A stretch of 64,000 nt of DNA from Ylistrum balloti. Taxonomy: Eukaryota. The position numbers were made by a program, and so were the translations under genes. Every line of letters begins with the position of its first letter. Position 1 is the first letter of the stretch. The stretch is taken from contig NW_026782260.1 of assembly GCF_031769215.1 (NCBI RefSeq), positions 2,542,001 through 2,606,000 of the forward strand. Direction: 5' to 3'. The notes below the pieces were generated by a model. The model ran no database searches. It was given only the letters and a program-made list of their open reading frames with translations, and had not been told where the DNA came from. This document shows positions 42,172-45,920 of the stretch, piece by piece.

Positions 42172-42890
42172 ATGTTGTCAAGCAAGCAAAAAAATTATCT
42201 GAGGAAGATAAGGCATGATTCCAAGCACGTTTTAGCTTTTACGGGTCCTTCTAGGTTTTTTGAGGGCATAAAATGAAGGTAAATATAAGATCAGTCGTTC
42301 ACAGATCATCGATTGACTACAAAACCAAGATCACTACAGTGTTCGAAGACAGGTGAAAAAACAAGACCCCTCGAGTCAAAATCCTTTCAATCGGCGTTGG
42401 CTACTCGTGTGATGCAGATTTGGCCAAGGTGTTTAACATCAAGGTGTGTGCTTTTCACTCGTTCTCATCAATTCCGTTATGCTTGGGTAAAGACTCTTAA
42501 ATACAAGAAAGCAAACACCGTTTTGGAAGCTTACAAAGAAAGATTTACCGAAAGAGAAACCCAGTACTCGTCAGATCGGACCACGGAAAGGGGTTTTCTG
42601 AACGACACGTTTAAATACTATTGTAAATCCATAGGCGTCACACACATAGCAAGTCATCCCAAGTATAGACTCAAAAATTTCGACAACGAACAATTACAGG
42701 GTTCTTTCAATGGCCAAGAATTGCAGAAAGTGAATAAAGTTAAAGACACGACCTGGAACACAGAAGAAGTTTTAAAAACGGAAAAGTTACAGGAAATTAG
42801 CATTCGTTCGATGGTAAGGTTGGCCAAAAAAATCGATCCCGGGATCGATGCCAACGATGTATCCGGCCCGAAAAAGCATAACTATGGGGT
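42172..42890 (+). pseudogene. Maverick retroviral-like (rve) integrase with C-terminal chromodomain, disrupted and internally deleted
   Basis: N-terminus: MLSSKQKNYLRKIRHDSKH..FTGPSR..GKYKISRSQIID*LQNQDHYS. Core: RYAWVKTLKYKKANTVLEAY..SDRTTERGFLNDTFKYYCKSIGVTH. This joins directly to PKYRLKNFDNEQLQGSFNGQELQKV. A frameshifted chromodomain follows: FVRW*GWPKK..IDANDV. Confidence 0.85.
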
Positions 42891-42959
42891 ATTGAAAATA
42901 TATTTACACCATCTTTACATTATGCCTAACAATCACGTTTATCCGATTTGTTTTCAATC

Positions 42960-43365
42960 TTTGACGTGGAAATATTCCAACTTCTATGCGATCGTAGAAG
43001 GCGTTGACTTCCACGAAAGTTTGCCAAATCTAGATCGTTTGGACGCTTCACTCAAGCACTTGATAGTCTTAGACGGTGGCCGAAGTGGATACAGGAGTGA
43101 TGTCGTGATTTACGAATAAAAAGTCATCACAGAAACATCAGCGTGATGTACATCGTACAAAACAAAGAACACAGATACATTATGAAAAATCCTATAGACG
43201 TTTCGCAAATCAGATGTCTGTCCCAACAGATGTTTCCGGGAGAAAGCACTCTTCTGCGAGAAACTTGTGATGACGCAACATCTAAGCCCAACGACTTTTG
43301 CTAATAGACGCGAAACAAGACACTCACCCTGACCAGCCTGCGTACCGATATATTTCCCGTACAAT
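42960..43365 (+). pseudogene. Maverick DNA-packaging ATPase (A32/FtsK-HerA family), disrupted
   Basis: VEGVDFHESLP..KHLIVLD (Walker B-like). After a frameshift: KSHHRNISVMYIVQN..KNPIDVSQIRCLSQQMFPG..DATSKP..LRTDIFP. No Walker A motif was recognisable. Confidence 0.85.
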
Positions 43366-43439
43366 GTTAAAAGGTTTATCTTCCCTAAAATTAGATATAA
43401 GGAAACTGCATATCGAAACAATTTTCAAACATTCAAAAC

Positions 43440-43716
43440 ATGTCGTTTCTCGAAAAACATTGTAGGGACTGCCACGTGTAAAGCGACCCTCGAAAAGGCC
43501 GACGAATGTCTAATTGCATTTGTGAGTGCTTTCAAAACATATTACGAGGTCGCGTGCCGTTGACGAAACAACAGAAGAAACGTTTGTCACTTCATCAAAC
43601 CGGTCTTCGTAACAAAAAATGGTATCGTCCGAAGTGGGGCTTACATTCAGACTCTGACACCCGTAGTGTTACCGTTAGCATCCGAACTCTTGGATGGACT
43701 GTTCCAAGGAATATGA
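43440..43716 (+). pseudogene. Conserved Maverick hypothetical ORF (CxCEC..N.L.G.V.L family), disrupted
   Basis: KADECLI/NCICECFQNILRGRVPLTKQQKKRLSLHQTGLR, then in another frame GIVRSGAYIQTLTPVVLPLASELL. Motif and position after the ATPase match my recollection of Maverick ORFs; no search was run. Confidence 0.7.
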
Positions 43717-44096
43717 GAAAGAGGTCTTTGGTAATGTAGGGATACAGTGTACGAATGGCGGCGATATAGACGGTGATACGTCAAACATCTTAAATTGAGA
43801 CGATCTTCCGTTAGGCGATAAAATGGCGTTATATAATCAGACTTTACATAAGTACATGTCCAGGTACCAGCAACACAGACTTGATAGTGATAAACCTATA
43901 TTGATGAATACCACCCACTCGGTGGGTGTACCGAAGGGCAACGCAGAGAACGAGAGGAACGTAGCTTCCTCTCCGGCACAAAATACTCCGCTAGTTCCTG
44001 TTACACAACAAAGAATCCCGACGTCTCATCGAACGGTACCTCCAGTCATACAACGAACAGTAGAAAATATCGACAAGGATATGGTGGAATGGAAAA

Positions 44097-44136
<40 letters not shown>

Positions 44137-44344
44137 CTTTAAAAAAGCTGGGAGAGATATAAACCTACAGATAAACATATCAAAAGAGAAGCTTGTCAAA
44201 AGGACAAACAGTCTATTTATTGAAAAAAAAAAAAAAGAAAAGAAAACACGCACGCAAACAAAAGTGTCTACGGACAAAACGTATAGTAGTAATTTTTGGT
44301 CAGAAATAACCGCGAGAGAATTTTTTCTTTTGTCAAATCTATGA
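43713..44344 (+). pseudogene. Conserved Maverick hypothetical ORF (..IL...DL....K..LYNQ.L..Y family), disrupted, containing a (GAT)n expansion
   Basis: SNILN*DDLPLGDKMALYNQTLHKY. The ORF track shows 43823-44344, with poly-Asp from a (TGA) run at about 44098-44136. Confidence 0.55.
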
Positions 44345-44419
44345 TTTAACTGTTGGCGATCAACAGGGTTCTTTGTGGGGTGCTTTGTTGAGCAGAAGTA
44401 TCGGCTATCCATCCATTAC

Positions 44420-45175
44420 AAAGAAACATAACATAACCCTACCTAGTAACAGTTCAAGGGAAAATTACCCTGATAATACTTACCACTTACACTACGCGAT
44501 TATCGCAACCTCTAGACCTCAAAGGTTCTTGGGAAATCGGTTTAGTCGAAATTCAATATCCTTATTCTTGGTTTAACGTGAACGAAGGCGAACTGTGGTC
44601 AGAAAAGATCGTCGGCAGTAGTGAGAACGTTGCTTCTGCGCAGTTCGATCCAAGAGTATCGGTGAAACTATACGTGAAGGCAAGTTATTTTCCGACAGCC
44701 TATTGGAATATCTGTGTGGATCTAAAGGAATGGTCTCGCACGGCGACATATTTAGAATTAATGTCGATGACGTCGACTGTAGAGTTACGTTTACGATATC
44801 GGTTGGCTTACGTATCGTAGTGAGCGAAAGATTTGCAAAATTGTTAGGTTTCGAGTAAAAGAGATTTTCAGAGGGAAAACATACGGGGAATTACATGGCA
44901 GACGTCAGACAGGGATTCTATTCCATCTATGTATATTGTCCGTTAGTAGAACCTCACGTGGTAGATGGCACGAGACTTCCGCTAGTTTCCATAGAAGACA
45001 AACCAGGACGTGCCGTGAGTAAGGAATTTCAACCCATTCATTACCTTGCTATCCATCAAAGGCAATTTCAAGAAAATTAACATAATGTTGAAAGACGATA
45101 CGGGTAAGCCAATTCCATTCGAGAGTGGGAAAGTTGTCGTCACGTTACACTCTATACGCAAAAAAATCTATATAA
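44420..45175 (+). pseudogene. Maverick minor capsid (penton-like) protein, disrupted
   Basis: ITLPSNSSRENYPDNT, then frameshifted PLDLKGSWEIGLVEIQYPYSWFNV. Later SIYVYCPLVEPHVV..KEFQPIHY and MLKDDTGKPIPFESGKVVVTLH. These are the characteristic N- and C-terminal blocks of this family. Confidence 0.8.
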
Positions 45176-45219
45176 GGAAGTAATTTTTTGAAAATACAGA
45201 AATACTTTTTATCAAAGAA

Positions 45220-45620
45220 ATGAAAGTAACTCACAATAGCGACGAAAGTCTATTCGATAGATATTACTTAAATTAAGCCGGAGGTGGAGCTGACGTTTTT
45301 AGAGGAGTTCGAATACAGCGAGGACACGAATTAGGGGATATCGTTGAAAGTATTTTCGAATCGACCGCCCCTCTAGTAAGATCGGGAATGAAAGTCATGG
45401 CACCCATTTGAAGATTAGTGTTAAGGCTTTAGGCAAATAGGCTTTAAGAACTGGCATGGATTTAAGGGAAGATTTGTTGAGTGGTAAATATATTAAAACA
45501 TTGACTAGAAAACGATTTTCCGAAGCAAAACATCGACTCAAACGCAAAACCTTGCAAAGCCGTGACAAAAGAATAAAAACACGCGGGAAAACATGTCAAA
45601 GAGACATTTTCGATACATGA
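45220..45620 (+). pseudogene. Maverick core-like (pVII-like, Gly-rich basic) protein, disrupted
   Basis: MKVTHNSDESLFDRYYLN*AGGGADVFRGVRIQRGHELGDIVESIF..PLVRSG..GK*ALRTG.DL..DLLSGK, ending RDIFDT*. Confidence 0.7.
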
Positions 45621-45703
45621 TCCATCTCCATATATATCCATCATTTTCAAAGGGAAATTTCATTAATGATTTGCTTCACCAATGACTGTGATATTTGATA
45701 TAA

Positions 45704-45920
45704 ATGTCTTTTCATTCTAATTAGTGCGAATGCACGAAATCAGAATTAGATTTGTTTGACGTACCTCCCACTCAAACCATTGTAGAAGACGGTCATTGGC
45801 ATTATATAGGGTCGGTAACTGCTGTAAAAGATGGTGGACCTTAAGAATTTAGCATTTCTGGAGCTGGGGAAGACTATCTGGAAATACCTTTCTACACGTC
45901 AAAACACAAATAGTAAGTCG
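45704..45920 (+). pseudogene. Maverick major capsid protein (double jelly-roll), N-terminal fragment only
   Basis: MSFHSN*CECTKSELDLFDVPPTQTIVEDGHWHY..DGGP*EFSISGAGEDYL, then frameshifted NTFLHVKTQIV. Homology ends just before the 62-bp array. Confidence 0.85.

What the first reader, a model, noticed from the sequence alone, without database searches (positions are those of the whole stretch)
42172..45920. Fossil Maverick/adintovirus keeping the integrase and the virion-morphogenesis module
The ORF track shows only fragments. Reading across frameshifts recovers integrase with chromodomain, packaging ATPase, two conserved ORFs, minor capsid, core-like protein and major capsid N-terminus, all on one strand in Maverick-type order (seen in sequence). 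Mavericks are known virus-like elements encoding double jelly-roll capsids (established). This looks like an endogenised DNA virus in a probably little-studied invertebrate host (inference). Intact relatives elsewhere in the genome could define an undescribed lineage.
Basis: partly seen in the sequence, partly recalled or inferred. Interest (0 to 1): 0.7.

Follow-up and report, generated by a model that had tools for sequence, protein, structure and literature searches.

The report
Polymerase-less Maverick virus fossil
This is a broken copy of a virus-like jumping element whose many sister copies in the same genome carry integrase, capsid and DNA-packaging genes between inverted ends but no DNA polymerase, so the family likely spread by borrowing a polymerase from a helper element.

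Summary
Observation confirmed and extended. The stretch matches, in order and on one strand, eight genes of an intact relative (L061). L061's capsids fold as double and single jelly-rolls, and its integrase, A32-type ATPase and protease hit Pfam. The new point is the family. None of 27 TIR-bracketed segments holds pPolB, and a pPolB profile hits 0 of 75 family loci. The TIRs abut the orphan ORF on one side and the protease on the other, so the mobile unit was about 7-8 kb with no replication gene. All copies are decayed (median 81% pairwise identity). Its capsid groups with intact multi-copy scallop capsids. Contig joints in three studies suggest L061 has the same polymerase-less layout (weak). 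No helper with matching ends was found. The scan earlier noted a split Polinton in a flatworm, and a 2026 preprint reports polB-lacking polintons in butterflies. New variant of a known kind.

The parts
41040..41810 (+). Left terminal inverted repeat; outer end decayed, somewhere at 41000-41050
   Evidence: Inverted arms 41120-41184 / 46314-46380; same sequence forms both arms in other copies
41872..42141 (+).
   Evidence: 61% identical to L061:384-659, E 2e-29; only a handful of homologues, no Pfam or Atlas hit; frame whole
42172..42876 (+). rve integrase with C-terminal chromodomain; frameshifted, middle deleted
   Evidence: tblastn and blastn against L061; Pfam rve and Chromo on the L061 protein
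42970..43399 (+). A32/FtsK-type packaging ATPase, C-terminal part only; Walker A region deleted
   Evidence: Pox_A32 on the L061 protein
43443..43707 (+). PM-like ORF (name by synteny with PMC8097293), frameshifted
   Evidence: E 1e-18
43781..44344 (+). PZ-like ORF (name by synteny); only the first 45 aa align, the rest is diverged and holds an (ATG)n run
   Evidence: E 6e-9
44424..45168 (+). Minor capsid (penton-like single jelly-roll), nearly full length, several frameshifts
   Evidence: E 5e-78; fold of the L061 protein
45220..45617 (+).
   Evidence: E 1e-20
45704..45886 (+). Major capsid (double jelly-roll), first ~60 aa only; the rest and the protease are deleted in this copy
   Evidence: 72% identical to P0001, E 1e-22; fold of the L061 protein; tree
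45897..46380 (-). Remnant of the right TIR, including six copies of a 62-bp subterminal repeat (45916-46296); inner part deleted, outer end missing
46391..47534 (.). 39-bp minisatellite array at the point where the right TIR stops; not part of the element
   Evidence: no TIR sequence beyond it up to 53000

Best explanation
The stretch is a dead, internally deleted copy of a Maverick-derived family whose copies carry integrase, packaging ATPase, both capsids and protease between long inverted repeats but no polymerase, and which likely replicated as a satellite on a protein-primed polymerase supplied by another Maverick. Shown: gene identity and order (U92-INT-ATPase-PM-PZ-mCP-PW-MCP-PRO, one strand), TIRs abutting the first and last gene, absence of pPolB, many dispersed copies, codon-level conservation against an intact relative. 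Inferred: the unit was 7-8 kb; its own integrase inserted it with a 6-bp duplication; its capsid module was kept by selection because it packaged the DNA into particles; a helper pPolB with its terminal protein primed replication at the triplet-repeat ends (5'-TGATGA); after one wave of insertions the copies decayed neutrally.
For: 0 of 27 TIR-bracketed segments hold pPolB. They lie in 26 of 55 loci; about 24 are independent, since C410a, C410b and C368 are duplicates and C1002 is tandem. All keep one strand and one order. An arm lies within 280 nt of the protease in 28 of 32 loci and within 170 nt of U92 in 21 of 22. C198a holds all nine genes between both arms, with a largest unexplained gap of 513 nt, whereas pPolB ORFs here are about 1,260 aa. 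pPolB profiles hit 25 of 25 control loci (E <= 6e-9) and 0 of 75 family loci (best E 0.7). 0 of 20 loci picked by the outer TIR alone hold pPolB within the 10 kb fetched. Copies against L061 mismatch 0.40-0.54 at third and 0.16-0.23 at second codon positions, capsids and protease included. In L061's lineage, contigs of 3 studies join position 255 to 7448 on opposite strands at a depth near that of the body in two of them, as a TIR would, leaving 7.2 kb filled by the nine ORFs. A TGATGA-like hexamer lies within 50 nt of the subterminal box in 21 of 34 arms against 13.5% background. Triplet-repeat ends are the Maverick pattern (PMC8097293, section 7). The genome holds pPolB-bearing Mavericks of at least two other families.
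Against: No helper with matching ends was found. The young family ends in AGTAGT, C936 in AGCAGC, and none of the pPolB loci examined carries the family TIR inside its element; one arm lies 730 nt outside a young element at C149. Most family loci were picked by capsid, integrase, protease or inner-TIR hits, which favours this layout, and genome searches give lower bounds. The pPolB controls were found with related queries, so 25 of 25 is partly circular and a very divergent decayed polymerase could be missed. The L061 joint rests on one contig per run with 23-41 letters on the short side, which the tool flags as often repeat-derived, and it was absent in 5 low-depth runs. The 6-bp target duplication rests on 2 pairs with 5 of 6 matches (C277, C586) among about 4 testable ones. 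No virions, free DNA or expression were observed.
Confidence: 0.55

Rival explanations
1. Same polymerase-less unit, but it moves by cut-and-paste through its own rve integrase, like Ginger transposons, and is copied only with the host chromosome; excised DNA may be packaged without any viral replication.
For: Ends read 5'-TG...CA-3', like the TG-starting termini of Ginger and Gypsy elements (PMC2836005, passages) and unlike the AG...CT ends of the autonomous families here. No helper with matching ends was found. Many short TIR-only derivatives exist.
Against: The ends keep a triplet repeat and 0.7-1 kb TIRs with subterminal repeats; Ginger ends are TGTNR with 4-bp duplications (PMC2836005). 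Long-term selection on both capsids, ATPase and protease is hard to explain if only one or two DNA molecules arise per cell.
Confidence: 0.22
2. One half of a bipartite Maverick: a separate polymerase-only segment with the same TIRs exists or existed, as noted for a flatworm in e1-8586485.
For: The unit holds everything except replication. The earlier scan note describes such a pair (unchecked). A tandem array of 3.7-kb units with decayed pPolB and no other Maverick gene hit lies on C264.
Against: 0 of 20 outer-TIR-picked loci and 0 of 3 inner-TIR-only loci hold pPolB. None of the 25 pPolB loci examined is bracketed by the family TIR.
Confidence: 0.15
3. An ordinary autonomous Maverick whose copies each lost pPolB after insertion, or whose 'TIRs' are internal repeats with pPolB lying outside them.
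For: Copies suffer many private deletions. Most Maverick loci in vertebrates are degraded (PMC8097293, passages). Other contigs with this capsid class do carry pPolB (L068, L083, L144).
Against: It needs clean loss of about 3.8 kb at the same junction in every copy while every other gene survives in 12-32 loci. Outer termini with a shared hexamer and target-duplication-like flanks bound the unit. No pPolB lies in the fetched flanks either.
Confidence: 0.07

Closest known systems
Group 1 Mavericks/Polintons = Beta-class adintovirus virion module (Polintoviricetes; PMC8097293, PMC8502044, 10.64898/2026.06.19.733378)
   Same: rve integrase, A32 ATPase, PM, PZ, minor capsid, PW, major capsid, adenain-like protease, long TIRs, triplet-repeat ends, probable 6-bp target duplication
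   Different: No pPolB and no helicase; 7-8 kb against 12.7-24.6 kb in intact vertebrate elements; all genes on one strand with ATPase-PM-PZ between integrase and minor capsid; ends TGATGA rather than AGTAGT or AGAGAG; extra orphan ORF U92
polB-lacking polintons of Pieris mannii and related insect SVs (bioRxiv 10.1101/2025.02.07.637071, passages)
   Same: TIR-flanked polintons that lack polB yet amplified; the authors leave the mode of mobilisation open
   Different: There the loss is recent, goes with a LINE or Gypsy insertion, and near-identical polB-bearing sisters exist. Here there is no cargo, no polB-bearing sister was found, and the layout seems shared with a relative about 30% diverged in DNA.
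Tlr1 elements and helicase-type PLVs / group 2 Mavericks (PMC11161782; 10.64898/2026.06.19.733378)
   Same: Integrase plus capsid module without a canonical pPolB
   Different: They replace pPolB with a helicase-polymerase; this family has no replacement gene and no room for one
Scallop 'F54H12.2-like' proteins (Pecten maximus XP_033729791.1 and cluster; Mizuhopecten; Argopecten)
   Same: Nearest named major capsids, one clade with the window fragment (SH-aLRT 97); 20 members in the Pecten cluster, which includes L061's capsid
   Different: Annotated as uncharacterised host genes; their genomic context could not be read here

Membership tests
Maverick/Polinton (adintovirus) | Retrovirus-like (rve) integrase | tested here: met
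   Window remnant matches L061 integrase, Pfam rve E 9e-13; catalytically dead in the window copy
Maverick/Polinton (adintovirus) | Protein-primed DNA polymerase B inside the element (defining per the abstract of PMC5499653) | tested here: not met
   0 of 27 TIR-bracketed segments, 0 of 75 family loci; absent from L061
Maverick/Polinton (adintovirus) | Double jelly-roll major capsid | tested here: met
   L061 MCP model matches PBCV-1, iridovirus and virophage MCPs; window holds aa 5-62
Maverick/Polinton (adintovirus) | Single jelly-roll minor capsid | tested here: met
   L061 mCP model matches mavirus and adenovirus pentons; window remnant 66-72% identical
Maverick/Polinton (adintovirus) | A32/FtsK packaging ATPase | tested here: met
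   Pox_A32 above cut-off in L061; C-terminal part in the window
Maverick/Polinton (adintovirus) | Adenain-like cysteine protease | tested here: met
   Met for the family (Peptidase_C5 in L061; remnants in about 30 loci); deleted in the window copy
Maverick/Polinton (adintovirus) | Terminal inverted repeats | tested here: met
Maverick/Polinton (adintovirus) | 6-bp target site duplication | tested here: inconclusive
   5 of 6 matches at C277 and C586, none at C621a; 8 of 374 unrelated arm pairs reach 5 of 6; not testable in the window, right end missing
Maverick/Polinton (adintovirus) | (AGT)2 or (AG)3 end motif | tested here: not met
   Ends read TGATGA/TGATAA; triplet periodicity kept
Maverick/Polinton (adintovirus) | Virion formation | not testable with these tools
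   Only indirect: codon-position conservation of capsid genes
Tlr1 / helicase-type PLV | SF1 or SF3 helicase-polymerase in place of pPolB | tested here: not met
   L061 has nine + strand ORFs of 90 aa or more, none a helicase; gaps in the fullest copies are under 0.6 kb
Ginger DNA transposons | TGTNR ends, 4-bp duplication, transposase as the main gene, no capsid | tested here: not met
   Ends start TG but read TGATGA; full capsid module present (PMC2836005 passages)

The most novel reading that the evidence does not exclude
A long-lived lineage of replication-gene-free Mavericks in marine molluscs: a 7-8 kb integrating satellite virus that encodes its whole virion and integrase, has kept them under selection across host species, is fossil in this genome and intact and multi-copy in scallops, and depends on other Mavericks for DNA replication. 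Surveys baited on pPolB would miss it by design.
Probability: 0.5. Interest if true: 0.8.

Novelty: new variant of a known kind. Interest (0 to 1): 0.6.

Why it matters
Mavericks are defined by polymerase plus integrase, and major surveys use pPolB as bait (PMC8502044, PMC10748475, passages). A stable lineage with a conserved virion module but no replication gene would show satellite-helper relations among animal endogenous DNA viruses. It would explain part of the 'missing core genes' that are usually put down to fragmentation (PMC11131425, passage). It also offers a direct test of whether Maverick capsids are kept for horizontal spread: intact relatives appear to sit in farmed scallops, where free particles and their DNA ends can be looked for. 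The window copy itself is only one dead member.

Tried and rejected
Pfam on the window's ORFs and X-read frames: no Maverick hit. Phage collection tblastn: none. IMG/VR scan: none; GTDB scan: 3 distant contigs in a Limnohabitans MAG. PDB by sequence for the MCP: only chance RNase hits. U92: no Pfam hit, no usable Atlas hit, 3 hits each in two searches, one of them a spurious repeat protein; function stays unknown. Idea that the young AGTAGT family shares the TIR: rejected, since the C149 match lies outside that element's own 333-bp TIRs and 0 of 6 other young loci show it. Idea that C936 is the helper: its AGCAGC ends and TIRs do not match. Shared internal deletion defining a sub-family: rejected, deletions differ between copies. 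No RNA holder listed for L061. Contig lengths of 7.1-7.7 kb among relatives fit the unit size but were given little weight. Among 36 coding variants taken from the 40 shown of 167, 19 are synonymous; a weak hint only. My PW and PZ labels were swapped and corrected. No complex-prediction job was run.
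Full report
Setting. The window is G000:C403:2542001-2606000 in a 648.5-Mb, 1,372-contig genome, about 37% GC and rich in minisatellites. The host was not identified. A marine mollusc is a guess from the nearest named capsids, and horizontal transfer weakens it.

Observation. The window's frames give no Maverick Pfam hit. The major-capsid fragment 45704-45910, read with X at stops, found two full-length 433-434-aa proteins at 72-73% identity. These led to 2,243 homologues, the nearest named ones being scallop 'F54H12.2-like' proteins, and to a 7,749-bp contig, L061, with nine intact + strand ORFs. 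Eight of the nine match the window in the same order and strand. L061's products are an rve integrase with a weak chromodomain hit, an A32 ATPase, a C5 protease, a double jelly-roll capsid and a penton-like capsid. PM, PZ and PW are named by synteny with PMC8097293 section 7, not by alignment to named references. The window copy is dead: the integrase middle and the ATPase N-terminus are deleted, and there are many frameshifts and stops. Only the orphan U92 (41872-42141) is whole.

Boundaries. Inverted arms bracket the genes at 41120-41184 and 46314-46380. Other copies show that 41040-41810 and the 62-bp repeat at 45916-46296 are parts of a TIR of about 0.7-1 kb. The window copy thus spans about 41040-46380. 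A deletion runs from capsid residue ~62 into the right arm, and a minisatellite sits where the right terminus should be.

The family. The minor-capsid DNA has 44 matches in the genome, the window's own included, the others at 66-88% identity (a lower bound). I fetched loci from capsid, integrase, protease and TIR searches; 55 loci including the window were annotated, plus 20 picked by the outer TIR alone. In 27 segments with both arms and genes between them, the genes are always a subset of U92-INT-ATPase-PM-PZ-mCP-PW-MCP-PRO on one strand, and none has pPolB. Three of these are duplicates of one insertion and two are a tandem pair. An arm follows the protease within 280 nt in 28 of 32 loci (three have no arm; C586 was mis-assigned by the script) and precedes U92 within 170 nt in 21 of 22. 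Profiles of both pPolB classes hit all 25 control loci and none of 75 family loci; the controls are partly circular. Of the 20 outer-TIR loci, none has pPolB, three have morphogenesis or integrase genes nearby, and the rest are TIR remnants. Apart from U92 in two loci, no gene is whole in any of 49 loci screened. Pairwise identity has a median of 81% over 841 pairs, with only a slight third-position excess (for mCP 0.20, 0.18, 0.25), which fits an old wave of insertion followed by neutral decay. No date in years can be given.

Ends. Arms start with TGATGA or a one-letter variant in 21 of 34 cases against 13.5% background. Flanks match 5 of 6 letters at C277 and C586, in keeping with a decayed 6-bp duplication, though few pairs could be tested. 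The two autonomous families here end in AGTAGT and AGCAGC.

Relatives. In a quick LG+G4 tree of 61 capsids, the window fragment and two single-frame stretches of other copies fall in a 12-row clade (SH-aLRT 97) with Pecten, Mizuhopecten and Argopecten proteins and L061; the genome's pPolB-bearing families are far away (the window row fills only 14% of columns). L061's capsid belongs to a 20-member cluster whose other 14 listed members are named Pecten maximus. Against L061 the copies differ at 40-54% of third and 16-23% of second positions in every gene, so the active lineages kept all nine genes under purifying selection. Contigs from three studies join L061 position 255 to 7448 on opposite strands at depths 212, 407 and 603, the pattern of a right TIR, which would leave 7.2 kb with no polymerase. 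The short sides (23-41 letters) and the lack of the joint in five shallow runs make this suggestive only. If it holds, selection on the capsids acted in the polymerase-less state.

Mechanism. I put about 0.9 on the polymerase-less layout in this genome and about 0.6 on a trans-acting pPolB given that layout. For: triplet-repeat ends and long TIRs (that such repeats serve protein-primed initiation is my own recalled knowledge), a conserved virion module that implies many genomes to package, and pPolB-bearing Mavericks in the same genome. Against: no helper with these ends among 25 pPolB loci. Cut-and-paste by the integrase, favoured by TG...CA ends, and a dedicated polymerase segment are the rivals.

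Literature. Six full-text searches found one report of polB-lacking yet amplified polintons, in butterflies and tied to retroelement insertions (10.1101/2025.02.07.637071, passages), and none for molluscs or for a cargo-free lineage. Seen as passages: PMC9683012, PMC8502044, PMC10748475, PMC11131425, PMC10294476, PMC2836005, PMC11161782, 10.1101/2022.07.12.499685, 10.1101/2025.04.19.649669, 10.64898/2026.10.13.758929. Seen as passages plus one section: PMC8097293 (section 7) and 10.64898/2026.06.19.733378 (section 5). Seen as the start of the abstract only: PMC5499653. No supplements were read; those of 10.1101/2025.04.19.649669 (bivalve element maps) and the genome maps of PMC8502044 may bear on novelty. 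Repbase and the 2006-2007 founding papers were not seen; I recall that non-autonomous Polintons were described there. The scan's unreviewed note e1-8586485 prompted the search for a polymerase half; none was found here.

Verdict. A real Maverick-derived fossil that fails the defining pPolB test at family level: a new variant of a known kind. Interest 0.6; 0.8 if the lineage proves polymerase-less and intact in scallops (probability about 0.5).

Noticed in passing
G000:C149, C1203, C1121, C367 (about 748-762 kb), C28, C585, C525 (L041-L060): A second, young Maverick family: PF21738 capsid (431 aa), pPolB ORF up to 1,258 aa with an endonuclease VII hit, 327-373-bp TIRs 98-99% alike, AGTAGT ends, 6-bp duplications, copies mostly 95-99% identical.
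   Followed up: partly
G000:C936 about 90.6-104.2 kb (L139-L140): A third family: 13.6 kb, AGCAGC ends, perfect 6-bp duplication, PF03175 pPolB with stops, capsid 32% identical to P0001.
   Followed up: partly
G000:C264 about 11-26 kb (L167-L168): Tandem array of at least four 3.7-kb units, 99.7% alike, each with a decayed pPolB and no other Maverick gene hit; may be a real array or an assembly artefact.
   Followed up: partly
window 41862-41897; L061:378-411 versus 6762-6795: The start of U92 is an inverted match to the 3' end of the major capsid gene (94% over 34 nt within L061; the antisense strand of the window resembles the capsid C-terminus). It could be a pairing element or a trace of an old inversion. 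Unexplained.
   Followed up: partly
G000:C277:214462-216418, C137, C266, C100, C367:304.7 kb: Short TIR-only derivatives of the family (0.6-2 kb), MITE-like.
   Followed up: partly
window 51983-52881: Decayed mariner-like transposase; weak Transposase_1 and DDE_3 hits below cut-off.
   Followed up: partly
window-wide, e.g. 12835-15054, 17855-19480, 36250-37246, 46391-48045: Many minisatellite arrays (units 26-79 bp); the long ORFs over 46329-47805 come from the 39-bp repeat and are probably not genes. One run of N at 32785-33195.
   Followed up: no
L061:7449-7749: The right end of L061 is a very high-depth repeat that seems inserted at the inner edge of the right TIR; its start recalls a Tc1-type MITE (recalled, not tested).
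   Followed up: partly
L143-L145; P0033, P0050: Maverick genes sit in records labelled as bacterial MAGs (Limnohabitans, Dehalococcoidia, a Bathymodiolus symbiont), likely eukaryotic or viral contamination.
   Followed up: no
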